Assembly (NCBI GenBank): GCA_051362555.1 | Contig: CM120649.1 | Coordinates: 10,850,001-10,914,000 of the forward strand | DNA: 64,000 bases | Reading direction: 5' to 3' | DNA from: Lingula anatina | Lineage: Eukaryota > Animalia > Brachiopoda | In this document: positions 6,730 to 31,578 of the stretch, piece by piece | Numbering within the stretch: position 1 is the stretch's first letter | Layout: every line of letters starts with the position of its first letter | Notes under the pieces: generated by a model | The model's database searches: none | What the model was told of the DNA's origin: nothing | Seen by the model: only the letters and a program-made list of their open reading frames with translations | Position numbers and translations under genes: made by a program

Positions 6730-6736
6730 CGTCCCT

Positions 6737-6780
<44 letters not shown>

Positions 6781-6803
6781 TTAACCTATTGCGCCTCAGA
6801 GAC
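6730..6803 (-). tRNA. tRNA-Asn (GTT), possibly a pseudogene
   Basis: Reverse complement GTCTCTGAGGCGCAATAGGTTAACGCGTTCGGCTGTTAACCGAAAGGTTGGTGGTTCAAGCCCACCCAGGGACG (74 nt) is nearly identical to the conserved animal tRNA-Asn. The invariant U8 is A and one D-stem pair is mismatched. A T4 run lies about 15 nt downstream. Confidence 0.85.
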
Positions 6804-8210: not shown

Positions 8211-8321
8211 TTCTGAGAACCGTGGGCAGTTAGAATTTTCACGGAGCCACATCAAAGAAATCGAGATGCACCTTGTTTTATAGAAACTTTTTCAAACAGT
8301 CACGACATAAGTGCTATATAA
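8211..8321 (+). promoter_or_regulatory. Proximal promoter of copy 1: TTCN3GAA motif and TATA box
   Basis: TTCTGAGAA at 8211-8219; TATATAA at 8315-8321, about 90 nt before the exon-1 donor AAG|GTGAGA (8411). Conserved in all three units. Confidence 0.6.
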
Positions 8322-8862
8322 GAGAGATAGGTTTACTTGTTTTCCATCTCTATTGTTCAACGATAGACATTCCCACCTGCAGATACTAGCGCCGGACGTT
8401 CCTTGTTGAAGGTGAGAGATTTTTTTTCGTGTTCGTATCGTGATACTTTTATCGGGCGTTTAAAACTTTACACTTGTAGTTGTTCATGTATACATGGGTT
8501 TGTATGCACTCTAAAATTAATACGTAACACGTTTATGCCGTCGGTGATTGAGACAAATTTGTCTCAGTTGTTGCCACCAATGTTACGTGACTCCACTATC
8601 AGTAGCTGGATGAAGCGCTAATGAAAGGTTTCTGAAATCTTAGCGTCGAAATTTTGTCGTTAGATTTAATTTTGATTACGTTGTCGACTGTTTTTTTTCC
8701 TTTAATGTTCACTATCAACTTATTCTTAGATATTTATTCAAAACACTTCATGTCAGTGAGTTTATGTGGTGATTGGATGTACTGTACGTCTCTCATAATG
8801 TGATCTAGAATAATGTTTTCCGATGAATCGATAAACTAAAAAGCTCCACATTGCAGTTCACC

Positions 8863-10008
8863 ATGAGGCTGTACCTTTTGATAGGACTCTTACTGGCCGT
8901 TGTAGCCATGATGGTCCAGGAGGGAGACAGTTGGCCCAGGATTCGCATCAGGCTTCCACGAATTCGTATTCGCGTAAGAAGGCAAGGAACTATTTTTGCT
9001 TATTTCTGAATTCAAAGTAATTTTCCATGCATGGAAATTGTGGTTAAAAAAAAGAGTAAAGAAAAATATCAAAACAACACATTTGGAAACAAAAGCAAAA
9101 ATACCATCTTGAAGAGAGTTTAAGTGATTTAGTGCACGTATTAAGTCAAAATAAATTAAACTACATGTACGTTTTATTTCCAGAGTCCTGGGGCGTGTAG
9201 TCAACTTTTGCAAGTCCCACCCAATCACTTGTTACAAAGTGGGGAAAGCGGCAGTAGTCGCCGTTGGTGACGTAAGTACACAAGAGAGAGAGAGAGAGAG
9301 AGAGATAAAGTAAACAATAAAGGAGAGAAAAGTGGGAGCTGTGAGACGGATGGAAAGAATAGGAAAATGAAAGGACGGTAATCAGAAGCGAGATACCATG
9401 ATTTTCAAGAAAAATCATATAATTTCAGGAAAATAAACTGCAGGTTATGATGAATGATCAGGACGGGGACGGCAAGATGGCTCTGCATGAGATGGAAGAT
9501 GAGGATCTGTTTGAGGAGCTCGACGCGAACGGTACGTTATAACATACAATATATTACAAATGACAAAAATAAAAGAAAAATGACGCCTTTTCTGTTGATG
9601 TACATACAATGTACATTGTAGTTTACGAAGTTATTCCACAATATCATGAGTAAAGCAAACAACGTCAGTGAAGCAAACATTTTGTGCTACACAATATGTG
9701 CATTTTATTACTAAGCTATATGTACCAGGTATATCACTTAATTTTTTTCTTTCAATATTGGAGGTTACTGTAGAACAAGGCAGAGAAAAATAGTGTGACG
9801 TGTCACCATTAAGCAAATTTTTCTCAAAACTGTGAAGTGACTCATCTTTACGCCAGATGTCTTAAAAGTGGTAAACGAAGGGCTAAGTTGATGTCATGGG
9901 TATATAAACGTGATAGCTCCCTTCTTCTTTCTTATTTTAGACGACGGATTCGTTGACCAAAAAGAGCTGGACAATCTCCAGGAACATTTTAATATGATAA
10001 CAGGTCAG

Positions 10009-10090
<82 letters not shown>

Positions 10091-10388
10091 AAACAAACAC
10101 GCAGGCACGTGCAGACGCACGCACACACGTGGGTTGGCTATATTAGTTACAGAATATATCCATCGTCCAAGTTACTAGCCCATTTCTTTAATTAATCAAG
10201 TTTTCTTTGCACCTTTGCACAGAAAAATGGTTATGTGAACTACAGAATTTTTGTACAACCCCATTTAAAACAGTCTTTCTATTCCAGCTCTGACCCAGGG
10301 TCACTCCTCGGATGATGACCAGCTGGACGATGAGCTGGACGAGAAAGAACTCGCTGAACTTAAAGCTCTGCTCAGCAATCAGCCTTAA
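8863..10388 (+). CDS. Secreted cationic-peptide/EF-hand precursor, copy 1 (157 aa; putative antimicrobial peptide precursor)
   Basis: Coding exons 8863-8981 (GC donor), 9184-9271, 9429-9531, 9941-10003, 10288-10388; phases 2,0,1,1 join into one frame. Protein: MRLYLLIGLLLAVVAMMVQEGDS/WPRIRIRLPRIRIRVRRVLGRVVNFCKSHPITCYKVGKAAVVAVG/DENKLQVMMNDQDGDGKMALHEMEDEDLFEELDANDDGFVDQKELDNLQEHFNMITALTQGHSSDDDQLDDELDEKELAELKALLSNQP. Non-coding exon 1 ends 8411; 3'UTR exon starts 10913; AATAAA at 11023-11028. The same structure is present in all three paralogs. Confidence 0.85.
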
Positions 10389-11765
10389 AAGGTAATATAT
10401 TATGAAGATATATTCTATGCACTTAAAATATGCATTTACAGGTATATAACCAATAAGTAAGAATCTGTAAATGTAGTTCATGGATTATCTTAAATTAAGG
10501 ATATATATAATAGATAGATCCGCTGTGATGAAATTGAAAGAATAACAATGCTGAATAACCAAAAATGTGTGATAGGAAACCTGTTACATGCTCGCGAGGA
10601 GGGGGAGGGGAGGGGGAAGGGGGGTTACCAAACAAAATGGTGGCAGCAGCCATCGCCATCGCATTTCACAAAACTGAAGAGAATACATACTCTGGGTCCA
10701 TAAACCATGTTACGTTATACTCTATTTCACCATTCTCCCACAATACCCACTTTGAGACCTTCCTATACAGGCAAGGGATTGACTTTCTGAGTGCACTTGA
10801 TTTCTGGGGTGGGGAGGGGGGGGGGTGTATGTCTTCATCAATGCGTATTTAATATTCATTCAAACATCAAATTAGCAAAAATGTTTGTATAATCTCTCAT
10901 ATTCTTTTTCAGATACAGATAGGAGATTCAAGTCTGTCATTTTATTAAATGAGATTTATTTCTGTCATTTGACGTCTTTGGACATTGAGATTGCTGTAAA
11001 CCAGACGCATTCTGACACTGGAAATAAATCATATGATATCATCGTTTGTTGTTCATAGGGTATTGATTTTTAAAATACAGATGCACGCAGTAAAATGACA
11101 TCTATGGAGTCAGCCAACAGCTGTCAATCATGAAGTAAAGAGTTGCACTAATGCCATATCTTTTCACCCGATTTAAAAACCGCGAAACAATATAATGACA
11201 ATGCGATCATGGGCAGAACATAGTTCACGATGAATTAATGTTAGCCATATTTCAGTTTTAACATCCGACTTCAATCTTTTTAAATTTAAGGTAAAAAATG
11301 ATATCACAAATTTGCTCTGATACTTAGTTATCGCTCCTGTATCTATATGAATTCCGCGATTTATACTTGAAACCTTCAAGTGAATCTGTGCCTTTTACTC
11401 AATGACTATTTGGAATTTATATCACACCATTGATTTTTTCTTTGTTTTTTTCCTTATAATATACTTCTTTTGTTCAATGTAACATACAACTCAAATCGAA
11501 TAAAATATGCCTCCCCTGGTACGTACATGAACAAGTGCCTAGGGCTAAGTGCCGAGGTTAACGGTGACCTCGTTGCAGATTATCCGGACAGTTTCACTGG
11601 GTGAAATACAGCTAGTTCATCTTCTTTTTTCCCTATGGCCGTCGTCTCCCATTATGAATATGAACTTCAGATTTGCCATCTTTCTGTCCTCATTTAAAAA
11701 ATAATTCCCTGCATCTGTACCTTCTACTTCAACTAAGGCAAATCCAAATCTAAAGCACATAACGA

Positions 11766-11838
11766 TAATTAAATTAAATTAAATTAAATTAAATTAAATT
11801 AAATTAAATTAAATTAAATTAAATTAAATTAAATTAAA
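11766..11838. repeat. (AAATT)n pentanucleotide microsatellite
   Basis: About 14 perfect units; only 1-2 units at the paralogous sites near 19821 and 31747. Confidence 0.95.
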
Positions 11839-12917
11839 ATTCAAACATCACTATTCATATTATTTTGAATAAACCGTGAAATTTTCTTCAGTATACATAG
11901 TTATCATGTGGCAAAACTTACATGATTGATAATATGAAGAAATCTCATTGCATTTTTGTCCCAATCTTCACGTATCATCGTATAATTGTGTTTACGTCTC
12001 ACTGAGGGGCTTCTATAACGCAATTATCAGATTGAAATTGAAGTTCCAGTCATATTCTCTAACACAACGGATTTGTTATATGGGAGATATTAAGCAATGT
12101 GATGCAGAGTGCTTGTATACAGTTAATCAAGATTTTTTTTAGAAATATTTTATGGAGAGAGAGTTCGGGGTTTTTCTAACGCTAAACTTAATTGTGTATT
12201 TTCTTGATTCGGTTTGAAATACGACGCATTCGGCTTTTTCAGAGTAAAGATAAGAATTAAGATTGGAAAGTGGAAACCTCAAAAAATGAACACATATGAT
12301 ACTGAAAAATATTCATGAAAATAAGATTAATACTTTTTTAAGATCTTGTTGCCAGTTTTGCTTAATTCTCCACCATACTTGTTCGCAACTGACCCAAAAT
12401 GTACGAAAAATGCATAGTATTTGGGAATATTTTTTCTTCTCTGATAAGTGCGATACAGATGTCTTTTTTTCTCAGTACACGTACGAACGGCGCTGTTAGT
12501 ACTAGTACGTGTCCATTTGCAAATATTAGGAGAGGGATGTTTATGTACAAATACTGCTATCAGGATACTCGAGTTTGAAGTTGACTTTAAAGTCATTTAA
12601 AGCCTATATAGTAAATAATTTAAAATTCTACATCGACTTTTCATTTTCATATATCAAAATTCAGGGTTTTGTGTTTCGTCCACAGACTTTTAAGTCTTAA
12701 AAGAATGGTAGTAAACTTTTGCCCAGTAAAATTCATAACAATCATGTAAGCGAAAGAGCATAATTTATTATTTTAGATTTCATTTATTAGCTTGCGTCTT
12801 GTTGCATTTATACCGTTTACCTCATCCAAATGATTTAATGCACATCACCATAGTAAATATATTTAAAAAGAAATTAAAAAATGTAAAATTTAAACATCAA
12901 ATTTGAATCACCAGTTT

Positions 12918-13124
12918 CAGGCCTACCCAACTACCAGACTCGGCACCGAATGATCCTGAATTCACCGGTAAATCAGACCACACTACCCGTTTTCAAGGTG
13001 TGTGTCAGATCGCATTACCCAGTATCATACCCTGAACAAATTTTGAGTGGTGATGCAATGCTTTTCAACCCCGCTGAGAATCGTCACTATCACATCGTGT
13101 ACTAGGCAAGAGCGGTGTCGCGTC
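12918..13124 (-). mobile_element. Truncated copy of the long-TIR MITE at 53221-53513
   Basis: One ~87-bp TIR (CAGGCCTACCCAACTACCAG...) plus the internal region in reverse orientation; the second TIR is missing. Confidence 0.85.
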
Positions 13125-13178
13125 TGATACATTTATGTCGTTCCTTCCACTTTGATTTATCGACAACTTAATAGTCAC

Positions 13179-13388
13179 TGCATTCCCAGAGATTTAGATC
13201 GATCCATATGGATCGACCTAACTCCCTGAGGGTTCACGCTAAATTGCTGTCAGCCGAGCGCACGACAGTTGATTACCCATTACAGCTTTTAGTAGGCGGG
13301 ACAGACATTAAAGCCGGTTAAGCTAACACCAATATAGTGAGAATTCCCAGGGGGATAGGTCGATCTAAATATCTATGGGAATGGGGTC
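13179..13388 (-). mobile_element. Harbinger-type MITE (family of 48444-48658), opposite orientation
   Basis: Reverse-complement match ending GGGAATGGGGTC followed by TTA; left terminus clipped by a few nt. Confidence 0.8.
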
Positions 13389-13828
13389 TTACAGGGAGCC
13401 CCAACGTTCGACGCAGCCAACTGCAAAACTGATTAACTGAACTAAACAAAAGGGGGTGAACATGTGTAGAAATTGTGGAAGAAAAAAAATCTCTTGCAGC
13501 GTAATATCATGTCAGAGCCTACTTAAGAGGACCGGCCAGTTTAGTTTACCGTTAGATGTGCATAGGACCTTAGGGATTCAACGGAAAAACAGGAAATTAT
13601 AGTTCACAGTGAACGCTTTATTACCGTAATAAAATCATGGAGATTAAAACAAGTCCAGTTAAAATAATAAAAATAGATGTCCGACCTGACCTGTCTGTCC
13701 TAGAATTTTATGACTGATGAGATGGAAGATTACTGGGAATTAATGTATATATTCCTGGAAAAATAACATTTGAATTTGACTCATCTGTGAGTGGTTTAAC
13801 CAAGACCACGGGGTATCCGATGTGAGAC

Positions 13829-13862
<34 letters not shown>

Positions 13863-14053
13863 CCTGACTTTTTGTACAAGTGAATTAAATAATTAATATC
13901 ATAAAAGAAAATTATCCAGAATGTTTCAGGAGGGGTGTGGTGCGAAAGAAAAGAAAATATATCTACGTTTTGCTTGACGAATTAGACATAAGGTACATGT
14001 AGAAGGGTGATGGTGTTTGCGTTTGTCTGCTTGCACTTTGAATACTTTTCTTT

Positions 14054-14084
<31 letters not shown>

Positions 14085-15586
14085 GGGGCGGGGGGGGGGG
14101 GAGGGGGAGGAGGATGAGGGGGGCATAGACGTATACCCCTTGTGTCTCCCTCCCAAAACCAGCCGATCTGCCATTCAGTTAAAGTTCACCTTGATGAAGT
14201 TGAGATATACATAACCAAGTTGTACGTGATTTCATGAAAAATCATTGAAAGAGAGAAAAAAACATTGAAAATGAGCCGTATTTCCGTGTACTGTCTTGTA
14301 CATATAATCCCCCCCTTTTGGAGCCTCAGTGCAACTCAGTGTAATGTGAATGAGGGAGAGAAGTTTTATGAGGAGAAAGGGCAAAAATTAATGCAGTCTT
14401 GTGCATTAATAAATACCCCCTTATATTATTTGAGAGGAGAGTGACCAAGACCACGGGTGTCAGGGGTGTGTACTATGTGAGACTTCGATGAGACTTAGTT
14501 CATAGAACTCCTTGCTCACCGTAATAAACAAACGATGAGTTTGTCTGGGATAAATGATCATGTACAAAATATGTTAGCTGTACTCCGTATATTGAAGCTA
14601 AGATCTAATAAACGTTTGAAGTATTATGACAAGCTGCCTTTTACTTTTTAACACGAATGACGGTGCTACGTGAACCTTTCCTTTCACATTTTTTTTACCT
14701 TAAATTGTGATGTAATGTAATGATATTTATTCCATGAATACCGGTATTATCTATATCGGGCTAAAGGGTTATTTGTTAAATACTAATGGATGCAAAAGAA
14801 ATTCCATTGTTACGAACGCTTACAAACTTTATGCTTTTTTAAAACCATTAAAATACAAACAAAAATGATTTCTGAAGGATGTGGTTCCTTTCACAGCATT
14901 TTTATGCCATGTCTGTTTATGATTATTTATTAATGGGAGAATCATTTACAGTTACACACATATACATCTATTTGTATTGTTATATTCAATGGGCACAGAT
15001 CTTTTACTCGTAATGTTGTATGAAAAGTTGAGGGCCTTCATACGTGACAAAAATGACAACCTACGAATTCCACGGTAACTAATTATAAACTGAGAATAAC
15101 ATACCAGTAAACATGTCGGACATCAACCTGACTTCATAACTTAACTCACATCAAGCAGGTGCGGCAGATGTACGATTACTCTCATTTCAACTAGTCTCGA
15201 TTTTTGGGAAATACGATGGAACAGATTTCAGGCTATTTGAAATGTGAGGTTGTTTACGGTGTTAAATTTATGTTTTTCTAAGTGGCAACTCGACAATTTT
15301 CAATTTTTTAGTTGATTCGTAGGAGCTTTGATCTATTAGTATTTTTTCTCGTGCTGGGAATAAAGTAGGCTAATTAGCAAGCCCTCATATATCAGCATCA
15401 ATTACATAACAGTATGTACCATTATGAATCCTCTACCAGGGTCACGGAGAGTCTTTGTACACTAGATATTCATACATATTACACTCGCTATTTCTGTACT
15501 GTTCGACCAGAATCTTTAATAAAAAAAAAAAAAAATGACATCTTCACTCAAGTGACCTCTTGGCTGTTGTTTTAATTTTAAACTTT

Positions 15587-15715
15587 TTCTAAGAACCGTG
15601 GGCAGTTAGAATTTTCGTAGAGCCACTACAAAGAAATCCTGATGCACCTTGTTTTATAGAATCAGATAGTATAATCGGAAACTTTTCAAACAGTTACAAC
15701 ACAAATGCTATATAA
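15587..15715 (+). promoter_or_regulatory. Proximal promoter of copy 2: TTCN3GAA motif and TATA box
   Basis: TTCTAAGAA at 15587-15595; TATATAA at 15709-15715; donor after 15805. Confidence 0.6.
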
Positions 15716-16324
15716 GAGAGATAGATTTGCTTGTTTTCCATCACTGTTGTTCAACGGTAGAGATTCCCATCTACAGATACTAGCGCCGGACTTTTCTTGT
15801 TGAAGGTGAGAGATTTTCTTCGTGTTCGTATCGTAATATTTTTATTGGGCATTTAAAACTTTACACTTGTAGTTGTTCTTATATACATGGGTTTGTATGC
15901 ACTCTAAAATTAATACGTAAAACGTTTAAGTCGTCATTGATTAAGACAAATTCGTCTCAGTTGCTGTTACAAATGTTACGCAACTCCATTTTCAGCAGCT
16001 GAATGAAGCGCTGATGAAATGTTTCTGAAACCTTAGCGTCGGATTTTTGTCATTAGATTTAATTTTGAATACGATGTCGACTGTATTTTCCTTTAATGTT
16101 CACTATCAACTCGTCCTTAGACATTTATTCCAAACACTTTATGTCATCAAGTTTATATGGTGATTGTATGTACTGTACGTCTCTCCCCTGTATTATGTGA
16201 TCTAGGATAATGTTTTCCCGATGAATCGATAAACTAAAAAGCTCAAAATTTCGTTTAAAAACCTATTTGTTGAATTTTAGCGAATCTTTTTCACTCCAAC
16301 TTTCTCTCCACATTGCAGTTCACC

Positions 16325-16718
16325 ATGAGGCTGTACCTTTTGATAGCACTCTTACTGGCTGTTGTAGCCATGATGGTCCAGGAGGGAGACAGTTGGCCTA
16401 GGATTCGCATCAGACTTCCACGAGTTCGAAGGCAAAGAACTATTTTTGCTTATTTCTGATGTCAAAGTAATTTCCATGCATGGACATTGTTGTTAAAAAG
16501 ATAGTAAAGAGAAATATCTAAACAGTACGTTTGGTAACAAAAACAAAAATACCAATTTGAAAAGGATTTAAGTGATTTAGTGCACGTATTAAGTCAAAGC
16601 AAGCTAAATTGAAGAACTATATATGTTTTATTTCCAGAATAGTGGGGCGTGTAGTCAACTTTTGCAAAAACCGTCCGGTTACTTGTTACAGAGTCGCCAC
16701 TGGTGACGTAAGTACACA

Positions 16719-16778
<60 letters not shown>

Positions 16779-17856
16779 GGGAGAGGGTGAGGAGAGGAAG
16801 AGAGAGATGGGAGAGGAGAGAGAGAGAGATAAAATAAACAAGAGAGGAGAGAAGTTGGTGCTGTAAAACAGAGGGAGAGAAAATGAGAGGAAGAAAAGAT
16901 GGTCATCATAAGCGAGATTCCATGATTTTCAACAAAAACAAACTATAACAATATCAAATAATTTCAGGAAAATAAACTGCAGGCCATGATGAATGATCAG
17001 GACGGGGACGGCAAGATGGCGCTACATGAGATGGAAGATAAGGATCTGTTTGAGGAGCTTGACGCGAACGGTACGTTATAACGTACAATATATTACAAAT
17101 GACAAAAAGAAAAGAAAAAGGACGCCTTTTTCGTTGATGTATATACGGTAGTGTACATAGTAGTTTGCAGAGTTATTCCACAATATCATGAGTAAAGCGA
17201 ACAACGTCAGTGAAGCAAACACTTTGTTCAACACAATTTGTGCATTTTATAACTGAACTATATGTATATCACTTGGTGTTTATTTTTTTCTTTCAATATT
17301 GGAAGTTACTGTAGTATAAAGCAGGGAAAAATAATGTGACGTGTCATAATTATGCAAATTTTACTCAAAACTGTGGAGTGACTCGTTCACCTTTACGCCA
17401 GATGTCTTAAAAGTGATAAACGAAGCACTACGTCTTAGATATATACATATGATAGTTCTTCTTTCTTATTTTAGACGACGGATTCGTTGACCAAAAAGAG
17501 CTGGACAATCTCCAGGAACATTTTAATATGATAACAGGTCAGCCTCTCTCTCTCTCTCATTCAAACACACACACGCATGCACGCACGTGCAGACTCACAC
17601 ACACATGTGGGTTGGCTATATTAGTTCCAGAATATATGTATTGCCCATATATTTAATTTATCAAGTCTTCTTTTCGCACTTACACACGCAAATGGTTAAG
17701 TGAACTACAGATTTTTTTGTACCTATCCCTTTTTAAAACAGTCCTTCTATTCCAGCTCTGACCCAGGGTCAGTCCTCGGATGATGACCAGCTGGACGATG
17801 AGCTAAACGAAAAAGAACTCGCTGAACTTAAAGATCTCCTCAGCAATCAGCCTTAA
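16325..17856 (+). CDS. Secreted cationic-peptide/EF-hand precursor, copy 2 (147 aa)
   Basis: Coding exons 16325-16431 (GC donor), 16638-16707, 16968-17070, 17475-17537, 17756-17856. Cationic segment WPRIRIRLPRVRRIVGRVVNFCKNRPVTCYRVATG; exon 3 has an in-frame 18-nt deletion. EF loops DQDGDGKMALHE and DANDDGFVDQKE. Exon 1 donor after 15805; 3'UTR exon from 18380; AATAAA 18490-18495. Confidence 0.85.
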
Positions 17857-19087
17857 AAGGTAATATACTATGCAGATATATTTTACGAACTTAAAATCTC
17901 TCTCCAAAGTAAGACTTTGTAAATGTAGTTCATGGATTATCTTAAATTTAGGATATATACAATAGATAGATCCGCTGTGATGAAATTAAAGAATATCAAT
18001 GATGAATAACCAAAAATGTGTGATAGGAAACATTAAAAATTGTTCGCGAGGAGGGGGAGGGGAGGGGAAGGGAAGGGGGTTATCAAAACAAAATGGTGGC
18101 AGCGGCCATCGACATCGCATTTCACAAAACTGAAGAGAATACATACTCTGGGTCCATAAAACCATGTTACGTTATACTCTATTTCACCATTTCCCATAAA
18201 TCCCCCGGGCCCTTCGCGACCTTCCAATGAATTAACTCTCTGAGGGCACTTGATGTCGGGGGTGGGTGGGTGGGGAGGAGGGGGGGGGGGAGTAGAGGGA
18301 AGGGTATTTGTCTTCATAATATTCATTTTAATATCAAATTAACATACATGTTTTTATAATCTCTCATGTTCTTTTTCAGATACACAGAGGAGATTCAAGT
18401 CTGTTATTTTATGAAATGAGATTTATTTCCCTCATTTGACTTCTTTGGACATTGAGATTGCTGTTAACCAGACGCATTCTCACATTGAAAATAAATCAAA
18501 TGATTTCATCTTTTGTTGTTCATAGAGTATTGATGGTTTAAAAAATAGAAGCACACGCAGTAAAATGACATGTATGGAGTCAGCAAACAGGTGTCAATCA
18601 TGAAGTCAAGAGTCGCACTAATGCAATATCATTTCACCTGAATTAAAAAGTGAAACAATAGAATGATGATGTGATCCTGTGCAGAATTAATTAGTTAACG
18701 CTAAATTAAAATGTGAAGATTTATTTTATAAAGTAATATCTTTGATGACCATTCGTCCTTCTGATCGGTCTCTGATGTATACTGTGGATAAATGTCTCTC
18801 TAATTTTTTGCCATCTTTCAGTTTTAATAGCTGACTTCAGTCTTGTAAATATGAGCTTAAACAAATGATCTCTTTGATTTCCTCTGATATCCAGTGACCA
18901 CTCTTGTATCTATGTGTACTAACCCCGCGTTTTATACAATATGTACTTGAAATCTGCAATTGAATCTGTGCCTTTGCAGTGACCCAATTTTGGAAATTTA
19001 TATCACACCATTGATATTTTCTTTGTTTTTTCTTTATTTTTTTTATTATATATTACTTTTGTTCAATGTCACAGACAACTCAAATCA

Positions 19088-19534
19088 AACTAGAAAAGCA
19101 CCCCGACAGCGCAGACCTCCGTCAAGGCAGCAAAGTCTCCACCCAATGCCGTTTCACCCCTAAATTTTCATTCTATAATGATTTAGCTTTTTGATTTTTG
19201 ATTATTTTTAATTGATTGATTAATGATCCGGATCACCACCAAAAACTAATCATCTGTTCCTTGGCCCACTTTCAGTTCCTGAAAATTTCATCAAAATCGG
19301 TCCATAACCTAGTTTTTTTTTATTTTTGATTATTGATTATTGATTGATTATTGATCGGGATCACCACCAAAAACTAATAACCTCTTCATTGGCCCACTTC
19401 TGACAGTTCCTGAAAATTTCATCAAAATAGGTCCACAACTTTTTCTGTAAAGTTGCTGACAGACAGACAGACAGATAGATAGACAGACAGACAAACTAAC
19501 GGAACCAAAAACATAACCTCCTTGGCGGAGATAA
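19088..19534 (-). mobile_element. HINE/DINE-1-like element, same family as 7044-7416, present only in unit 2
   Basis: Reverse-complement similarity with an (ACAG)n tract and two core repeats. Paralogous sites near 11500 and 31430 are empty. A fragment also occurs at ~39732-39835. Confidence 0.8.
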
Positions 19535-21289: not shown

Positions 21290-21515
21290 GCCACAATGCA
21301 TCATAGCTGTCTACTCCCCCCTCCCCCATCACGAGCCCCATGTCATCTTAGTCGTTTCCCCCATCACGAGCCCCATGTCATCTTAGTCGTCTCCCCCATC
21401 ACGAGCCCCATGTCATCTTAGTCGTCTCCCCATCACGAGCTCCATGTCATCCTAGTCGTTTCCCCCATCACGAGCCCCATGTCATCTTTGTTGTCTCCCC
21501 CATCACGAGCCCCAT
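21290..21515. repeat. 35-bp minisatellite (CCCCCATCACGAGCCCCATGTCATCTTAGTCGTYT), about 6 units
   Basis: CATCACGAG recurs at 21327, 21362, 21397 and onward. The paralogous array at ~5430-5630 is more degenerate. Confidence 0.8.
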
Positions 21516-21785
21516 TTAACCTTTATTGTCACCCCTGTCCCCAATGGCTTGCCACCGAAGGGGGCGCGCGCACACACTCACACACATTACGAGCCCCAAT
21601 TCATCTTAGTTCTTAAAGCAAGCCGTCATACAAGCAGTGTGAGGATTCAGTGGGCGGGGATATCGAGGAGGGGTTTATGCTGTTACAATAAGGAGTGCAG
21701 TCCCTTGGAGCAGGAGCATAAGATACTAGTCACAGAAAGCGGTACATTTATGTGGTTTGTTCCACTCTGATTTATCGACAACTTA

Positions 21786-22000
21786 GGCTCTGTTCCCATA
21801 GATTTTAGATCGATCTATCCCCGCGGGGAGTCTCACTAGATTACTTTCAGATAATCCGACTTAAATGTCCGTCCCACCTACTACAAGCTGTAAGGAGGTA
21901 ATTAACTTTCGTGTCCGCCCGGCTGACAGTTATTTAGCGTGAACCCCCAGGGAGTTAGGTCGATCTAAAGTAGGTCGATCTAATCTATGGAAATGGGGTG
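21786..22000 (+). mobile_element. Harbinger-type MITE (family of 48444-48658), TTA TSD
   Basis: Colinear with 48444-48658; TTA at 21783-21785 and 22001-22003. The exact site is empty in unit 2 (GACAACTTAATAGTC at ~13162). Confidence 0.8.
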
Positions 22001-22991
22001 TTAATAGTCACTTATAGGGAGCCTCAGCATTCGACGCAGACAACTGACGGAACTGATTAACTGAACTAGACAAAAGGGGGTTTCAACGGAAAAACAGGAA
22101 ATGATAGTTGACGATGAATCCTTTATAATCGTGATAAAATCATGGGATTTAAAACAAGTTCAGTTTAAATATTAAAAATAGATGTCTGGCCCAACCTGAC
22201 TGTCCTACGAATTGATGAGAGATGAGATGGAAGATTACTGGGAGTTCTATATTCCTGAAAAAATAACATTTGAATTTGACTCATTTGTGAGGGGTTTAAC
22301 CAAAACCACGGGGTATCCGATGTGTGACAGTTATAGAAAATTATATATATTGCCTGACTCTTTGTACAAATAAATAAGATTTTTGTAAAAGTAAATCAAA
22401 TAATTAATATCATAAAAGAAAATTATCCAGAATTTTTCAGGAGGGGTGTGGTGAGAAAGCAAAGAAAATATATCTACGCTTTGCTTGACGCATTAGACTT
22501 AAAGTAGTAAGTGGGGTGATGGCTTGCGTTTGGCTCCTTGCACATTGAATATTTTTTTTCGGGGGAGGGGGGGGGGCATACACGTATACCCCTTGTGTCC
22601 CCCTCCCAAAACCAGCTGATCTGCCATTCCGTTAAAATTCACCTTGATGAAGTTGAGATATTCAAAAGCTACTTATGCGAGATTTCATGATATATCATTG
22701 AAAGTAAGCCGTATTTCCGTGTACTGTCTTGTGCATTGTATAGATCATCCATTCTCTCCCCTTTTGGAGCCTCAGTGCAACTCACGGGTGTTAGGGGTGT
22801 GTACTACATGTATGTGAGGCTTTGATAAGACTTCGTTCATAGAACTCCGTGCTCACCGTAATAAACAAATGATGGATTTGCCTTAGATTAATGCTCATGT
22901 ACAAAATCTTTATATTGAAGTTTTATGACACGGTGCCCTTTAGTTTTTTACTCGAAGTATGGCGCTACACCTTTCCTTTGAAATGTTTATT

Positions 22992-25898
22992 CAGCCCGGG
23001 AGCCACTGGCTGATTTGACGGTTATTTTGGAAAATATTAGATTTGGCCTCGTTTTCAAAACGTGGAGTGGTAGCCCCAAAAAAATTTGGCGGGAGACGAA
23101 GGCATAGAGACAGGTAAGTTGTACATGTGTTTGTGGAATGAACAGTAGATTTAAATACTAATGAATTTGACGGGACAATACAGTATATGCTTAAGTTACA
23201 TTTTATACACCGAATAAGTCTTCGTGTATCGATTTCACTGAGTATTCTCTAAAGTTACTGGCGATTAGCAAAATGGCCGCACACAAAACGTCATTGTAAA
23301 CATTGACTTTTGAACTGTGCCAAATGCAGCTTAAGGGTTTTTTTCTTTATCTGTTCCTGTTTTTTCATAGTTTGGCAATATTTTTTGAACATATCAAATT
23401 TTTAAGATGTGCGATGGCCTGTAATTTGTAGAATTTCAACATTTCCAACAAGCTGTATATTCACCGTGCCGGGTACCTATCATTTAGTTGATCGAGTGAT
23501 GGCAGTGGCTTTCTGGTCTCATGCATGGAATGAATGTCACCGTATAAGTGAAATGTTTGAATCTTGGCTTCTCATGCAATTTCTTCGTGTTTTAATGTGA
23601 AAAGGATGAAGTGGATTGCGAAATAACATTGTCATCCAACCTGCATACACGTATACGTATGTGCATATCGTGGTGTACCAGTACTTGTTTGCAAAGCGGT
23701 GGGGAGGGGGGGGGGGGGGGGGGGCATTGGTACCAGTAGTTGAGAAAGATACAGTATTGTAAACTAACCATAGGCATGTTTTGAAATATATGAATCGTAA
23801 ATTATGTCTTTTTTGCTGGGGGCGGGGGTTAAATGTATCAATTGTGTTAATTTTTTTAGAAAAAAAACATGTAAACACAAAATAACTTTTATTGCATTGG
23901 TTGGGGGTTTTGAGGAGAAGAATGTCATAAAAATGCAAGTTTAAAAAAGGTAAATAATATATGTATGTGTGTATGTACATTAAATGAAACAGGCTCTTCA
24001 ATGATGAGGGCATATGATAGTGATGTGGTGCTCTGACTTGCATGTGTTTTCTAATTTTTTCATGCCTTGATTCAAATTGGGTTTTTGAATTATGATGGGT
24101 GTGCAACTTTGCCCAAAGTTCAGTTTCAAATGTTTTTTTAATAATCACTGTTATGAATTAAGTATAAATAGTGCAGTTTAAGGTAAAGATTGTAAATATA
24201 GTGCTGTTCAAGATTGATTGTCACAGTTTACCTATTACAAAGATTGCAATAAATTATGATTAATTTCAGTGTGTATGTGTGTGAGCAGTGTTAGAAATTA
24301 AGGCTGGACCGTCTGCCCGGGGCAGACAACTTTCAGAACAGGCTGAGAAGTTTTCCCATTTTTTCCCATTCTGTCCAGCTACTTGTCAGGATGGCTGGAC
24401 CTTCGGTCCAGCAACTAATTTTCCTAAGAGGCAAACACTGTGTGTGAGCAATTGATAAATGTAGTTAGAATTTTTTATGATATTCTTTTAAAAACTCTAT
24501 TATTTATTCTAGGCTTGAATAGCATGAATGGGACCAGGATTATTCCTTTTGCCGTGCAATTATCATAACAAAAGCGCCCATCATTTCCAAATGCTGTGTG
24601 GCAATGAACACCACAACCTCTGGGATACTTCTAAGGGATGAAAAATATGTGCTCTTGCTAATATAAATAGTTATTGGTTATCAGTACATAGAAATGCAGT
24701 GAAATCAATTTAGGTTTTAACCACATGAAGTTAGTTAAAAGTGTATGGGCAACTAAGTTAACAATACATTGTTTTATTTTTACTGTGCAGGGTTTTTTTA
24801 TATATGTGTAGCTTATAGATAATATCTACTTATCAGAATACAAGTAAAACAAGTTTATTCAAATGCAAATATGGATTGATACCTGGTATCACTGAAAGAA
24901 AATTAACATGACATCTTTGGGAAAATTTATGAAATTATATTATTTGTAAAAATTCTGGTCCACTGTGTAAAGGGAAATTGTGTGTTAGATGGTTAAATAT
25001 ATATAAATGTGTACCAATCAAGTAAAGTAGCATTGAATTATCACCTACTGGGTAATTAATGTACAATGTAATGTAAAATAACTATTTTGCAATGTACATG
25101 TCTCACTGGTAAAATATTTCAGGCTAGTTGAATTTTATGTAAAATTAAAATAAAATATATAGCAATGTGATTAAATGTAAATTGTCTTTCATTTGTTTTT
25201 TTTTTTTCATATTTAATGAAAGGAATACCCTCATCAGTTGGCCTCATGTAATAAAAAGGTTTATCTACAATGAAAAAAAATGTTAAAGTTCATTTGTATT
25301 AGCACCGTGGTAAGTTCCAAGAAAAAAATTATTTCATTGTCCCCAATACCCAGTTGCTCTATATAAGTAATACTGTGTGAAGGAAAAACTAAAACGAGAC
25401 TGAAGCTCATGAGAAAGCACTAAGTCAAAGCGAGGCTTATATGCGGATATCGTAAGTGAGAGTTTTCAGGCTGACATGGCCGTGAATTGATTTGTGCCAT
25501 TCACAGCTTAAGGCAAAGTTCTTTACATGCTTACATTGACAGAAAGCTGAATAAATTTTCCACAACTTGTAGTAATTTCAAGTTGTGCGGAGGCCTCTAT
25601 AGGTACAAAAATCAAAATCAAAAACGAACTTCCGTAATAGCTTTAATAAAATTTCGATTTCAAACTCATTTTTCAACATTAAATATGCTGTAGATCAACT
25701 TTTGGGTCATCTCACATTATTCGAAATTTATTTCTCAATATGACAATGTACATATTGTAACCCCAAGTACGTTAATAGCCGAGATAATACACCGTTTATG
25801 ACACCCTATAAATCTAAAAAAATATTGCCCAATTCAAATTCTCGAACTTCCGGTTTGTTTAATAGCCACCTAGCGGCAGACCAGTGGCTCCCGGGCTG
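22992..25898. mobile_element. 2.9-kb non-autonomous DNA transposon, 18-bp perfect TIR, 3-bp TSD ATT (Academ-like by inference)
   Basis: CAGCCCGGGAGCCACTGG at the left end and CCAGTGGCTCCCGGGCTG at the right; ATT at 22989-22991 and 25899-25901. Absent from the paralogous site in unit 2 (~14690). No transposase ORF. Confidence 0.85.
24286..24440. mobile_element. hAT-type MITE nested in the 2.9-kb element, 8-bp TSD TGTGTGAG
   Basis: Termini CAGTGTT and AACACTG; TGTGTGAG at 24278-24285 and 24441-24448. Confidence 0.75.
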
Positions 25899-26596
25899 AT
25901 TCCCTGCAAGTGTGATGTGAAATGTTACCGATGATATTTATTCCATGAATACCGGTATAATCTATATCGGGATATAGGCCTATTTGTTAAATACTAATGG
26001 GTGCACAAGAAATTCCATTGTTACAAACGATTGCAAACTTTATGCTTTTTTAATTGATAAAACCATTAAAATGCAATAAAATACGCATTCTGAAGGATTT
26101 TATGCCATTTCTGTTTATGATTATAGACTATAGATAAATGGAAGAATCATTTACATCTATTTGAATTGTTATATTCAATGTGCACAGATCTTATACTAGT
26201 AATGTTGTATGAAAAGTTGAGGGCCTTCAAACGTGACAAAAATGACAACCTACGAATTCCACGGTAACTAATTATAAACTGAGAATAACATACCAGTAAA
26301 CATGTCAGACATCGACCTGACGTCATAACCTAACTCACAGGTGCAGCAGATGTATACTGTTACTCTCATTTCAACTAGTCTCGATTTCTGGGAAATACGA
26401 TGGAACAGATTTCAGGCTATTTGAAATGTGAGGTTGTTTACGGTGTTGAATTTATGTTTTTTCTAAGTGACAACTTGACAAGTTCACAACTTCTTTTAGT
26501 TGATTCGTAGGAACTTTGATTTATTAGAATTTTTTTCTCGTACTTCCAATAAAGTAGGCTAGTTAGCAAGCCCTTAAATATCAGCATGAATTACTT

Positions 26597-27487
26597 ATTA
26601 TTTACCCACGATTGTGTGGCAAGGGAAGATAACGCATTTCTAATGAAGTTATAATGAAGTTCGCCGATTAGTCGGTCTGATCAAGAAGTTGAAAAGAGAC
26701 AACTTCTTGGTCTGATACATAACAATGTTGAGACTTCGTATAGGCAGTCGGAGACAACTCAATAAATTGGGGTACAGACCATGACTTGATACCGAATGTG
26801 AGCAAAACAAAAGAAATGGTTGTAGACTATAGTAGACGTCAGACTGTAAAAAGTCCCATAGAGATTAACGACAAAACTGTCAAAAGGTCTGTGATTATAA
26901 ATTTCTGGGTATTGAACATTAGACTAACCTGGAGTAATAACACCACTTAAGTATTGAAAAGGCAAGGCGGTTAATGTACTTTTTAGGAAATTAAAATCTT
27001 TTACCAGGAATGTGTCTATTTTGACGAACTTTTATAGGTGTGTTTTAGAAAGTATTTTAACTTATGCAGTAACTGTTTGGTATGGGCGTGCAACTGTATA
27101 GAGGATTAAAACCAAGTGAAAAAGATTGTTGAAACGGCAGGTACGTAATTGGAATGGATCTTACCCCCATTCATTCCATTTATCTCGATAGTGAAAGTAA
27201 AACAGCTTCCATCATGACTAATACTACTCATCCAGCTCATACCCTATTCAAATTTTTACCCAGCAAATCGAGGCTTTTAGTTTTTAAGGGTAGAAAGCGA
27301 TTTTTATCTAGCTTTTATCCTTCAGCAGTAACTCTTCTTAACACCAATACGTAATTTCATTTCAGTACATTTAAATAGTTTGCTTCAACAATGGCGCTAT
27401 CACAGGGCCAAAAATTCCCAATTTTATACATTTGTATTTTATTGGTTTAATAAATTATTATCTATCTATTAAATAAATCATTATCTA
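26597..27487 (+). mobile_element. 5'-truncated, frameshifted LINE 3' end (Rex1/Babar-like RT C-terminus) upstream of copy 3
   Basis: Broken frames read KTKEMVVDY, KFLG, MYFL, LTNFYRCVLESILTYAVTVWYG, HPAHTLFKFLPS and RFLSSFYPSAVTLLN. It ends with AATAAA and an (ATCT) tail. Absent in units 1 and 2. Confidence 0.85.
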
Positions 27488-27636
27488 AACAGCATGCACC
27501 AGCATTCATCCTCTACCAGGGCCACGGAGATTATTTGTTCACTCGCTATTTCTCTACTGTTCGACCAGAATCTTTGATATATTAATGACATCTTCACTCA
27601 GGTGACCTCTTGGCTGTTGTTTTAATTTTAGTCTTT

Positions 27637-27764
27637 TTCTAGGAAACATGGGCAGTTAGAATTTTCGCGGAGCCTCAAGAAAGAAATCGTGATGCACCTT
27701 GATTATAGAATCAGATAGTATAATCGGAAACTGTTCAAACAGTCACGACACAAATGCTATATAA
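27637..27764 (+). promoter_or_regulatory. Proximal promoter of copy 3: TTCN3GAA motif and TATA box
   Basis: TTCTAGGAA at 27637-27645; TATATAA at 27758-27764; donor after 27851. Confidence 0.6.
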
Positions 27765-28670
27765 GAGAGATAGGTTTGCTGGTTGTCCATCACTATTGTT
27801 CAACGATAGAGATTCCCACCTGCAGATACTAGCGCCGGACGTTCCTTGAAGGTGAGAGATTTTCTTCGTGTTCGTATCGTGATACTTTTATCGGTCGTTT
27901 AAAACTTTACACTTGTAGTTGTTCATATATACATGGGTTTGTATGCACTCTAAAATTAATACGTAACACGTTTAGGCCGTCAGTGATTAAGACAAATTCG
28001 TCTCAGTTGTCGTCACAAATGTCACGTGACTTCACTTTCAGTAGCTGACTGAAGCGCCGATGAAATGTTTCTGAAGCCTTAGCGTTGAGTTTTTGTCGTT
28101 AGATTTAATTTTGATTACGTTGTCGACTGTTTTTCCTTTAATGTTCAACTATCAACTCATCCTTAGAAACTTATTCCAAACACTTCATCTCATCGCGTTT
28201 ACATGGTGATAGCATGCACTGTACGACTCTCACCGGTATAATGTGATCTAGAATAATGTTTTCCCGATTGGTGATAAAATGTTTTGACCGTGACATATCC
28301 GATTCGGATTGCATTTATTAATATCAAAGCTAGCTTTATCTTTTTTATGACAGTATTTTTTTATATTGTAAAGAATGTCCTTGTACGGCTTAAATGTAAT
28401 GTTTGTAGTGTCAAGTGTTATAAGTATCATAAGTACAGTGTATTTCCTGACCAAGATATTAAGAAAAATGTGTTCTGTTAATCCGTCTTCGAGTTCTAAA
28501 TCTTGGTTTTTACCTTTACTAGTGAAACGCAGGAGTCTCCCAGTCCACTATAACTTCGACTCGATAATACAAACAACAAAGCTCAAAATTTGGTGTAAAA
28601 AACTTTTTGTTGAATTTTATCGAGATTTTTCACTCCACCTTTCTCTCCACAGTTTACCATGCAGTTCACC

Positions 28671-29084
28671 ATGAGGCAGTTCCTTTTGACAGGACTCTTA
28701 CTGGCTGTTGTGGCCATGATGGTTCAGGAAGGAGACAGTTGGCCCAGGATTCGTATCAGACTTCCACGAGTTCGAAGGCAAAGAACTATTTTTGCTTATT
28801 TCTGAAGTCAAAGTAATTTCCATACATGGAAATTGTGGTTTAAAAAAAGAGTAAAGAAAAATATCAAAACAATACGTTTGGAAACAAAAACAAAAATACC
28901 AGCTTTCAAAGAGTTTAAGTTATTATGTGCACGTAGGCCCCTATTAAGTCAAAGTAATTTGAAATGAACAACTACGTTTTTATTTTCAGACTCGTGAGGG
29001 GTGTAGTCGACTTTTGCAAAAACCGCCCAGTTACTTGTTACAAAGTGGGGAAAGCGGCAGTAGCCGCCGCTGGTGACGTAAGTA

Positions 29085-29116
<32 letters not shown>

Positions 29117-30212
29117 CGGGAGAGGGAGGGAGGAGGAAAAGAGAGAGAGAGAGAGACAGAGAATTTAAACCGGAAAAGAGAAAAGAGGGTGCTATGAGAC
29201 AGGGAACGAGAATGAAAGAGAGAAAAGACAGTCATCAAGCGCAAGATACCATGATTTTCAAGAAAAATCAAATAATTTCAGGAAAATAAACTGCAGGTTA
29301 TGATGAATGATCAGGACGGGGACGGCAAGATGGCTCTGCATGAGATGGAAGATGAGGATCTGTTTGAGGAGCTCGATGCGAACGGTACGTTATAACGTAC
29401 AAAATACTACAAATGACAGAAATTAAAAGAAAAGGACGCCTTTTTCGTTGATGTATATACGGTAGTGTACATTGTAGTTTACAGAGTTATTCCACAATAT
29501 AATGAGTAAAGCGAATGACGTCAGTGAAGCAAACATTTTGGGCTACACAATGTGCATAACTGAGCTACATGTATATCACTTGGTGATTAGATTTTTCTTT
29601 CAATATTGGATACTACTGTCGTATAAAGCAGAGAAAAATAATGTAACGTGTAATAATCATGCATGTTTTACTCCAAAACTGTGGAGTGACTCGTTCACCT
29701 TGACGCCAGATGTCTTAAAAGTGATATACGAAACGCTACGTTGATGTCATGGATATATATGACATTTCCTTTCTTCTTCCTTATTTATTTTAGAGGACGG
29801 ATTCGTTGACCAAAAAGAGCTGGACAATCTCCAAGAACATATACATATGATAGCAGGTCAGCTCTCTCTCTCTCTCTCTCTCTCTCTCAAACACACACAC
29901 ACACACACACACACACGCCAGTCTACAGTCACGTGCAGACGCACGCACACACGTGGGTTGGCAATATTTGTTACAGAATATAGCCATCGTCCCCTATCTT
30001 GCCCATTTATTTAATTTATCAAGTCTTCCTTGCGCACTCACGAATGGTTAACTTAAGTGTACTACAGATTTTTTGTACCCATCCCCTTTTAAATCAGTCC
30101 TTCATTTCCAGCTTTGACCCAGGGTCAGTCCTCGGATAATAACCAGCTGGACGATGAGCTGAACGAGAAAGAACTCGCTGAACTTAAAGCTCTGCTCAGC
30201 AATCAGCCTTAA
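28671..30212 (+). CDS. Secreted cationic-peptide/EF-hand precursor, copy 3 (153 aa; 157 aa if the in-frame ATG at 28659 is used)
   Basis: Coding exons 28671-28777 (GC donor), 28990-29077, 29282-29384, 29794-29856, 30112-30212. Cationic segment WPRIRIRLPRVRRLVRGVVDFCKNRPVTCYKVGKAAVAAAG; EF loops DQDGDGKMALHE and DANEDGFVDQKE. Exon 1 donor after 27851; 3'UTR exon from 30750; AATAAA 30860-30865. Confidence 0.85.
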
Positions 30213-31578
30213 AAGGTAATATATTGTGGAGATATATTCTATGCACTTAAAATATGCATTTACATAACCAATAAGTAAGAATCTGTTAATGCAGTTCATG
30301 AATTATCTTAAATTAAGGATAAATACAATAGGTAGACCCGCTGTGATGAAGTTTTAAAAATAACAATGATAAATAACCAAAAATGCGTGATAGGAAACCT
30401 GAAAAATGTTCATGAGGGGGGGGGGGGGGGGGGGGGGGGAGGGGTCTACCAAAACAAAATGGTGGCAGCGGCCATGGCCATCGCACAAAACAAAATAATA
30501 CATACTCTGGGTCCATAAAACCATGTTACGTTATATTACATTTCATCATCCCCCCCCCCCCCCCTTCGCGACCTTCTTATACAGGCAATGTATTAACTTT
30601 CTGAGTGCACTTGATGTCGGGGTGGGGAGGGGGGGGCGGGAAGGGGAGGGTTTAAAAAGGGGTATTTGTCTTCATCAATGCGTGTTTAATATTCATTTAA
30701 ATATCAAATTAGCATACATGTTTGTATAATCTCTCATGTTCTTTTTCAGATACACAGAGGAGATTCAAGTCTGTTATTTTATAAAATGAGATTTATTTAT
30801 CTCATTTGACTTCTTTGGATATTGAGATTGCTGTAAACCAGACGCATTCTGACATTGAAAATAAATCAAAATTTAATGATTTCATCTTTTGTTGTTCATA
30901 GAATATTGATGGATAAGAAAATAGAAGCACACGCGGTAAAATGACACGTATGGAGTCAGACAGGTGTAAATCATGATGTCGAGAGTTGATCTATGTAATA
31001 TCATTTCTCCAGATTTAAATAATAGGTGTAACAATAGAATGATAATGTGATTCTGTGCAGAATTTAGTTCACGATTAATTAATACCTAAATATTTATGTT
31101 GTATAGTAATGTCTTTGATGACCATTCGTCCACCTGATCGGTCTATAATTTTTGCCATATTTCAGTTTTAACACCGACTTCAATCTTATAAATCTGAGAT
31201 ACAACAAATGATCTCACTAATTTCCTCTGATATCCCGTGACCACTGTTGTACATGTATCTCTGTATATTAACGTCGCTATTCATACCCAAAATCCTCTAT
31301 TGAATCTGTGCCTTCACAATTACTATTGGAGATTTATATCACACCATTGATTTTTTTTTGCTTTACCTTATATTTCATAATTATTATATATTTCTTTTGT
31401 TCAATTCCAACGACAAATCGAATCAAATCAAATAAGAAATGCCTCTCCTGCGAGTACGAGTACCTGGTGGCTAAATGACGAGGTTAACGGTGCACTCGAT
31501 CTTCACGGATTATCTAGACAGTTCCACTGGCTGAAATACAGCTCGTTCATCTATATTTCCCTAAGGCCGTCTTCTCCC

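What the first reader, a model, noticed from the sequence alone, without database searches (positions are those of the whole stretch)
8315..30865. Hidden tandem family of secreted 'cationic peptide + acidic EF-hand' precursors: candidate Ca2+-regulated antimicrobial system
Seen: three intact 7-exon paralogs that the ORF track does not show. In copy 1 a 23-aa signal peptide is followed by 45 aa containing 9 Arg, 3 Lys and no acidic residue, with alternating R-I, a putative amphipathic helix and a C-x6-C loop. Then come 89 aa with 29 Asp/Glu and two canonical EF-hand loops. The charge switch sits at the exon 3/4 boundary. Known: anionic C-terminal propieces accompany cationic AMPs (clavanins, pleurocidins, myticalins), and the mussel mytimycin precursor has a C-terminal EF-hand, but its mature peptide is Cys-rich, unlike this one. 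Inference: the acidic EF-hand module masks a membrane-active peptide, and Ca2+ (granule, haemolymph or seawater) or proteolysis releases it. I do not recognise this family.
Basis: partly seen in the sequence, partly recalled or inferred. Interest (0 to 1): 0.9.

Follow-up and report, generated by a model that had tools for sequence, protein, structure and literature searches.

The report
Brachiopod antimicrobial-like peptides with EF-hand tail
Three neighbouring gene copies of the lamp shell Lingula each encode a predicted secreted precursor in which a strongly positive, likely antimicrobial peptide is followed by an acidic, predicted calcium-binding tail that would keep it harmless until cut off, an apparently undescribed candidate defence-peptide family from a little-studied animal phylum.

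Summary
Three intact paralogs encode a predicted signal peptide, a 34–44-aa peptide (net +10 to +12, one C-x6-C loop) and an 89-aa acidic tail with two EF-hand loops. They are not hidden: they match Lingula anatina RefSeq 'uncharacterized' models (copy 3 exactly), and RNA reads of a diverged variant cover exons 1–6 and no intron. Added here: a divergent Lingula subfamily has a cysteine-free amphipathic helix before the same tail, and an unnamed marine protein carries two tandem copies of the peptide without any EF-hand. All peptides end in an invariant Gly-Asp-Glu, a likely cut-and-amidation site. The peptide changes three times faster than the tail and takes all indels, without sign of positive selection. 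The family is absent from Lingula shell proteomes. Best reading (0.55): prepro host-defence peptide released by proteolysis, with a permanently Ca2+-loaded EF-hand propiece as neutraliser. It works like myticalin or mytimycin precursors but fails membership of both. No activity is shown, and the main Lingula immunity paper could not be read.

The parts
8309..8411 (+). Copy 1, exon 1 (untranslated; 5' end not defined, probably upstream of 8309)
   Evidence: GT donor conserved in three copies; X7 reads cover it, join it to exon 2 and run on upstream
8857..8981 (+). Copy 1, exon 2: ATG 8863, predicted signal peptide 8863-8931, Arg/Ile-alternating start of the cationic peptide; ends at a GC donor
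   Evidence: same junction in RefSeq P0001/P0007; reads on the exon
9184..9271 (+). Copy 1, exon 3: amphipathic helix, C-x6-C loop, hydrophobic end, Gly-Asp (9266-9271) of the invariant Gly-Asp-Glu
9429..9531 (+). Copy 1, exon 4: EF-hand loop 1 (9456-9491) and first part of loop 2 (from 9522)
   Evidence: exon 4-5 joint in reads of X7 and X8
9941..10003 (+). Copy 1, exon 5: rest of EF-hand loop 2 (to 9966) and exit helix
10288..10391 (+). Copy 1, exon 6: acidic linker and predicted acidic C-terminal helix, stop 10386-10388
   Evidence: reads
10913..11028 (+). Copy 1, predicted untranslated exon 7 to AATAAA (11023-11028)
   Evidence: conserved acceptor and signal in three copies; no reads
15708..18495 (+). 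Copy 2 (147 aa): exon 1 ends 15805; exons 16319-16431 (ATG 16325), 16638-16707, 16968-17070, 17475-17537, 17756-17859 (stop 17854-17856); predicted exon 7 from 18380
   Evidence: 140/147 identical to RefSeq P0003 (LOC106179445)
27757..30865 (+). Copy 3 (153 aa): exon 1 ends 27851; exons 28665-28777 (ATG 28671), 28990-29077, 29282-29384, 29794-29856, 30112-30215 (stop 30210-30212); predicted exon 7 from 30750
   Evidence: identical to RefSeq P0002 (LOC106179444 isoform X2)

Best explanation
These three intact paralogs likely encode prepro-forms of membrane-active host-defence peptides: a predicted signal peptide, a 34-44-residue peptide of net charge +10 to +12, and an acidic tail with two EF-hand loops that would neutralise the peptide until a protease cuts it off. 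Shown: gene structure, charge layout, loop motifs, paralogs and transcription of the family. Predicted: the peptide is an Arg/Ile-alternating head, an amphipathic helix, a kink stapled by the C-x6-C disulfide and a hydrophobic helix ending in Gly. Inferred: the precursor is cut between Gly and Asp of the invariant Gly-Asp-Glu, and the Gly is used for C-terminal amidation; the tail (net -21 to -25) stays Ca2+-loaded along the whole secretory route and serves as charge neutraliser, chaperone or granule-packing aid rather than as a Ca2+ switch; the freed peptide binds anionic microbial membranes.
For: Charge layout and amphipathicity: best 11-residue helical moment 0.85-0.93 in the window copies, 1.16 in the cysteine-free paralog P0035. 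P0035/P0183 (LOC106172683, LOC106180903) keep signal end, Gly-Asp-Glu and EF tail at 50% identity but carry a different, linear Arg/Val helix: conserved flanks with an exchangeable cationic core is the pattern described for myticalins (PMC5577615). Between window copies pN is 0.106 in the peptide and 0.035 in the acidic part, introns differ by 0.12, and all indels are in frame and in the peptide. A profile from Lingula peptides alone scores the unnamed marine protein P0012 at 34.8 bits in two tandem units, against a maximum of 10.6 in 2000 windowed and 9.5 in 2000 full shuffles; both units end in Gly-Asp-Glu with no EF-hand behind, so that motif belongs to the peptide module and the units look excisable. 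A mussel AMP precursor, mytimycin, has an anionic EF-hand extension (PMC8004829); anionic propieces and Gly-dependent amidation are general in marine AMP precursors (PMC10608444). None of the family's RefSeq accessions is among 54 L. anatina shell proteins. The second AlphaFold model gives helix 32-47, helix 49-63 and an EF pair at pLDDT 84-87.
Against: No activity, processing or tissue data. No sequence or profile match to any known AMP family (Pfam; PDB sequences). There is no dibasic site between peptide and tail, unlike myticalins and mytimycins; the only dibasic sites lie inside the peptide, so the protease is unknown. No positive selection: pN/pS is 0.38 in the peptide, where pS is also raised (0.28). 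Expression was low in the 7 RNA runs laid: on copy 1, 32, 4, 1 and 0 reads in X7, X8, X2 and X5 and trace or no exon depth in X1, X4 and X9; tissues are not known, and the reads come from a variant about 7% different.
Confidence: 0.55

Rival explanations
1. Ca2+ switch: the EF-hand pair binds the cationic helix in a Ca2+-dependent way, as calmodulin binds basic amphipathic peptides, and a change in Ca2+ frees or captures the peptide with or without cutting.
For: Both loops keep the Ca2+ ligands at positions 1, 3, 5 and 12 in all Lingula members, even at 50% identity; the EF exons are the most constrained part (pN 0.031); the model folds them as a pair resembling two-EF-hand domains such as polcalcin and S100. 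Ca2+-dependent binding of basic helices by EF-hand pairs is established knowledge (recalled).
Against: ER, Golgi, granules, body fluid and seawater hold far more Ca2+ than canonical EF-hands need (recalled), so no switch is expected unless the sites are unusually weak. The same peptide occurs in P0012 without any EF-hand. Conservation fits a structural role equally well.
Confidence: 0.15
2. Secreted matrix or biomineral protein: the uncut two-charge protein binds phosphate, polyanions or chitin by its Arg-rich end and Ca2+ by its acidic end in shell, chaetae, cuticle or mucus.
For: Lingula makes a calcium-phosphate shell, and EF-hand domains occur in all lophotrochozoan shell proteomes compared in PMC13425148. 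No dibasic cleavage site separates the parts.
Against: 0 of 54 listed L. anatina shell proteins is a member. In the 2015 proteome no row seen matches length 144-157, pI 4.5 and 20% acidic residues, and its domain table has no EF-hand (the first rows of Table 25 were not seen). It does not explain the tandem, EF-free units of P0012.
Confidence: 0.1
3. Signalling peptide precursor (neuropeptide, hormone or pheromone) with an acidic granin-like carrier; the peptide acts on a receptor, not on membranes.
For: Signal peptide, likely amidation Gly, single disulfide loop and polyprotein form (P0012) are also typical of neuropeptide precursors (established knowledge); a granin-like precursor gene lies 6 kb downstream.
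Against: Receptor ligands are usually conserved, whereas this peptide varies in length and can lose its disulfide while keeping charge and amphipathicity; no orthologs were found in other animals with sequenced proteomes.
Confidence: 0.08
4. Membrane-active peptide with a non-immune target, such as a cytolytic deterrent against predators or foulers, or a gamete or egg-coat factor; processing as in the best explanation.
For: The sequence features show a likely membrane-active peptide but cannot name its target.
Against: High Arg content favours anionic microbial over neutral animal membranes (established knowledge); Lingula is a filter feeder in microbe-rich sediment.
Confidence: 0.12

Closest known systems
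Mytimycin precursors (Mytilida; PMC8004829)
   Same: 23-aa signal peptide, cationic mature region, anionic C-terminal extension with an EF-hand domain of unknown function.
   Different: Mytimycins have 10-14 cysteines and a dibasic site before the extension; here 2 or 0 cysteines, no dibasic site, and a Gly-Asp-Glu junction. No homology was shown.
Myticalins and modiocalins (PMC5577615)
   Same: Conserved signal and anionic propiece around a variable Arg-rich peptide of similar length; multigene family; N-terminal Trp/Pro/Arg/Ile motifs look alike (Table 1 of the paper, compared by eye, low complexity).
   Different: Myticalins have three exons, a Lys-Arg site, an unstructured propiece and are restricted to Mytiloida; here seven predicted exons, the peptide split over two exons, a disulfide loop and a folded EF-hand pair.
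Clavanin, styelin and pleurocidin-type helical AMP precursors
   Same: Signal peptide, amphipathic helix, Gly, then acidic extension; clavanins and styelins are C-amidated (PMC10608444); the Gly-Asp junction in their precursors is recalled, not checked here.
   Different: Their extensions are short and have no EF-hand (recalled); no Pfam match to those families at E up to 1 or 5.
Compact bacterial EF-hand repeat proteins, including lanmodulin
   Same: Loop-to-loop spacing of 22 residues; 142 of 148 other top phmmer hits have a 21-24 spacing, the few named ones are bacterial, and lanmodulin aligns over both loops.
   Different: Those proteins have several pairs and no cationic peptide (1 of 148 has a basic stretch before the first loop); the Lingula loops lack the second-position Pro recalled for lanmodulin.

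Membership tests
Myticalins | Signal peptide + Arg-rich cationic core (over 10% Arg) + anionic C-terminal extension | tested here: met
   definition from PMC5577615; signal peptide read by eye
Myticalins | Lys-Arg dibasic site between core and extension | tested here: not met
   only internal Arg-Arg sites inside the peptide
Myticalins | Three exons, whole mature peptide in exon 2 | tested here: not met
   five coding exons, peptide split by a GC-AG intron
Myticalins | Restriction to Mytiloida and myticalin signal consensus | tested here: not met
   proteins are from Lingula anatina; signal differs from the consensus
Myticalins | Antibacterial activity of the mature peptide | not testable with these tools
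   needs MIC assays
Mytimycins | Anionic C-terminal extension containing an EF-hand | tested here: met
   two loops, Pfam EF-hand above cut-off in P0035, model and fold comparison
Mytimycins | [quoted passage not shown] | tested here: not met
   2 Cys in the window copies, 0 in P0035/P0183; definition in PMC8004829
Mytimycins | Dibasic cleavage site before the extension | tested here: not met
Mytimycins | Homology of the EF-hand extension to that of mytimycin | tested here: inconclusive
Clavanin/styelin/pleurocidin-type precursors | Profile match to the Pfam families | tested here: not met
   only EF-hand or spurious families reported
Clavanin/styelin/pleurocidin-type precursors | Amidated helical peptide released at a Gly before an acidic extension | not testable with these tools
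   invariant Gly-Asp-Glu is present; cleavage and amidation need mass spectrometry
Lingula shell matrix proteins | Detected in the shell proteome | tested here: not met
   0 of 54 in PMC13425148 Data S1; no matching row or EF-hand domain in the part of PMC4595640 tables read
Lanmodulin | Four EF-hands with Pro at loop position 2 (recalled) | tested here: not met
   two loops, with Gln/Ala or Leu/Thr at position 2

The most novel reading that the evidence does not exclude
An undescribed marine-animal defence-peptide module (cationic helix, disulfide-stapled kink, hydrophobic helix, Gly-Asp-Glu release site) occurs both as tandem polyprotein units and, in brachiopods, fused to a compact bacterial-style EF-hand pair that acts as a Ca2+-dependent built-in inhibitor, gripping the peptide as calmodulin grips basic helices and letting go when Ca2+ falls or bacterial membranes compete. 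That would be a calcium-gated prodrug antibiotic and would explain the EF-hand of mytimycins.
Probability: 0.15. Interest if true: 0.8.

Novelty: new variant of a known kind. Interest (0 to 1): 0.5.

Why it matters
No brachiopod AMP appears in three recent marine-AMP reviews (0 hits for 'brachiopod'), so this is a ready candidate family from an untapped phylum, with short peptides that can be synthesised and tested at once. It is a second, apparently independent case of an EF-hand propiece on a cationic peptide; the role of that domain in mytimycin is stated to be unknown, and these small precursors, with natural variants with and without disulfide and a relative without EF-hand, make that question directly testable.

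Tried and rejected
No whole genome is held for this window, so further copies were found only through protein databases. No RNA holder was listed by the run index; same-species runs were laid instead. The GC-AG junction itself was not listed among read joints; it rests on three-copy conservation and RefSeq. An alternative GT donor 43 nt further on is excluded by an in-frame stop before it (read), and the GT at 8974 exists in copy 1 only. A profile of the peptide parts found only its own members (6 hits of 6930 candidates); PDB sequences gave 0 hits; JGI metagenome contigs gave no confirmed locus for P0012 (596 pattern matches, none confirmed); the ESM Atlas gave no usable feature hit for P0002 residues 1-70 or P0012, and only weak helical matches under its bar. 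The DUF5330 match of P0012 (21.5 bits, cut-off 27.5) was set aside as below cut-off. First AlphaFold model unusable; Foldseek on the second gave no match at E up to 0.001 and VIA-align no Z of 8 or more. The complex predictor was not available, so tail-peptide binding is untested. Positive selection was looked for and not found. A protein tree did not resolve the six close copies. Horizontal origin of the EF pair was not tested. Earlier findings of the scan: none returned. Paper searches for the sequences or accessions found 0 papers; topic searches showed no description of the family. Gerdol et al. 2018 on Lingula immunity (PMID 29278680) is not held.
Full report
Observation. The window holds three copies of one gene on the plus strand inside duplicated blocks of several kb that are about 80-87% alike. 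Splicing at conserved sites gives open frames of 157, 147 and 153 aa. Five introns are GT-AG and intron 2 is GC-AG in all three copies. The first acidic residue is the last codon of exon 3. The signal peptide is judged by eye; no predictor was available.

Identity. A search with the exon 2 frame gave 4 proteins among 72 candidates, all Lingula anatina RefSeq 'uncharacterized' proteins (accessions). Copy 3 equals P0002 exactly, copy 1 is 154/157 identical to P0001 and copy 2 is 140/147 identical to P0003. The genes are therefore modelled already, including the GC-AG junction, but carry no function.

Transcription. Seven same-species RNA runs were laid. On copy 1, X7 gave 32 reads, X8 4, X2 1 and X5 0, all in exon bins and none in intron bins, with exon 1-2 and exon 4-5 joints; X1, X4 and X9 gave trace or no exon depth at a stricter threshold. 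The reads differ from the window by about 7%, with 11 silent and 11 replacement codons and no stop, so they show that the family is spliced and expressed in a diverged population, not that each copy here is. Five X7 reads run upstream of 8309, so the TATA-like motif at 8315 lies inside the transcript; exon 7 had no reads.

Wider family. An exhaustive phmmer search listed 150 best hits of 557 at E up to 0.001. Besides the query only P0035 covered the whole length (51%); it and P0183 are two more Lingula loci. They keep the end of the signal, an invariant Gly-Asp-Glu and the EF tail, but carry a cysteine-free Arg/Val helix with a helical moment of 1.16 against 0.85-0.93 in the window copies, whose N-terminal Arg/Ile stretch has a strong strand-type moment. 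The other 148 hits centre on the EF stretch; 142 of them share a loop spacing of 21-24 residues and one has a basic stretch before the first loop. A profile search (30 hits of 7992 candidates scored) also returned P0012, an unnamed 141-aa protein from marine assemblies with no EF-hand. A profile built from four Lingula peptides alone scores it at 34.8 bits in two tandem units, each with Phe-Cys-x6-Cys and ending in Gly-Asp-Glu; 2000 full and 2000 windowed shuffles reached at most 9.5 and 10.6 bits. A plain pairwise BLASTP is weak (E 0.014), so the link rests on the profile and the double occurrence. Between its units lie a dibasic pair and two X-Pro/X-Ala dipeptides, the look of a polyprotein spacer (sequence; interpretation from general knowledge). 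A further search with the peptide alignment found only its own members (6 of 6930 candidates).

Evolution. Across the three window copies introns differ by 0.12. Replacement divergence is 0.106 in the peptide, 0.050 in the signal and 0.035 in the acidic part; 11 of 41 peptide columns vary against 11 of 89 in the tail; all indels are in frame and in the peptide. pN/pS is below 1 everywhere (0.38 in the peptide), so this is purifying selection with a freer peptide, not shown positive selection.

Structure. Pfam EF-hand scores stay under the curated cut-offs for P0001-P0003 and pass them for P0035. A model from five close sequences failed (pLDDT 38.5). With 23 EF stretches from other proteins added, mean pLDDT was 69, 84-87 over residues 81-110, with helices 32-47 and 49-63 in the peptide around the Cys pair; the EF fold is partly owed to those added rows. 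The best fold match is the two-EF-hand protein polcalcin (Z 7.7, rmsd 2.3, 56 residues), under the tool's bar of 8, with EF-hand proteins filling the list; Foldseek gave nothing at E up to 0.001. Binding between tail and peptide could not be modelled.

Mechanism. Shown: layout, motifs, paralogs, expression of the family. Inferred: signal cleavage before Trp24; release of the peptide at Gly-Asp-Glu with amidation; neutralisation of the +10 to +12 peptide by the -21 to -25 tail; action on anionic microbial membranes. The reason to place the cut there is that the motif is invariant in all Lingula members and follows both units of P0012, where no EF-hand comes next, while no dibasic site lies between peptide and tail. 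A Ca2+ switch is less likely than a permanently loaded tail because secretory compartments and seawater hold Ca2+ well above canonical EF-hand affinity (own knowledge); weak sites would revive it. A shell role is disfavoured: none of the family's accessions is among 54 L. anatina shell proteins (PMC13425148, Data S1 read whole, supplement searched), and no row seen in the 2015 tables fits (PMC4595640, passages and supplement part 9 of 24).

Known systems. Myticalins (PMC5577615: abstract, two of three parts of Results, tables) share the three-part layout but need a Lys-Arg site and three exons. Mytimycins (PMC8004829, passages; PMC7653742, passages) share the EF-hand extension, whose function the authors call unknown, but have 10-14 cysteines and a dibasic site. 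Anionic propieces and Gly amidation are general (PMC10608444, passages). The family works like these but belongs to neither. Searches for its sequences and accessions found 0 papers, and three reviews do not mention brachiopods (passages). The one paper most likely to mention it, Gerdol et al. 2018 on Lingula immunity, is not held (seen only as a reference), and its supplements may bear on novelty.

Verdict. A real, expressed, so far unnamed family and a good candidate for brachiopod host-defence peptides with an EF-hand propiece: a new variant of a known kind. Function is inferred from sequence alone. Interest 0.5; 0.8 if the tail proves to be a Ca2+-gated inhibitor (probability about 0.15).

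Noticed in passing
window 36655-37812 (minus strand), with a probable last exon near 36230-36370: Long exon encoding a secreted-looking acidic precursor with a signal-like start and many dibasic sites, granin- or neuropeptide-like; no Pfam family above cut-off.
   Followed up: partly
window 9456-9966 and paralogs: The EF-hand loops are only 22 residues apart, the geometry of compact bacterial EF-repeat proteins and lanmodulin rather than calmodulin; the few named top hits are bacterial. Origin not tested.
   Followed up: partly
proteins P0012, P0191-P0194: Unnamed marine polyprotein with at least two tandem cationic disulfide-loop peptides and no EF-hand; likely a partial reading frame of an AMP-like precursor from another animal.
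   Followed up: partly
proteins P0004, P0006 (RefSeq X2 isoforms): Isoform models that begin at Met16 and so lack most of the signal peptide; real cytosolic isoforms or annotation artefacts.
   Followed up: no
window 22992-25898: 2.9-kb insertion between copies 2 and 3 with a perfect 18-bp terminal inverted repeat and an apparent 3-bp target duplication; a non-autonomous DNA transposon (read).
   Followed up: no
window 26598-27488: Insertion in the upstream region of copy 3 only, with broken frames resembling the end of a LINE reverse transcriptase (gap; resemblance recalled).
   Followed up: no
window 12900-13390: Hairpin-rich repeat heavily covered by RNA reads in all four runs, from copies elsewhere in the transcriptome; inverted copies at 48.5 and 53.3 kb.
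   Followed up: no
window 6730-6803 (minus strand): tRNA-Asn(GTT) gene upstream of copy 1.
   Followed up: yes
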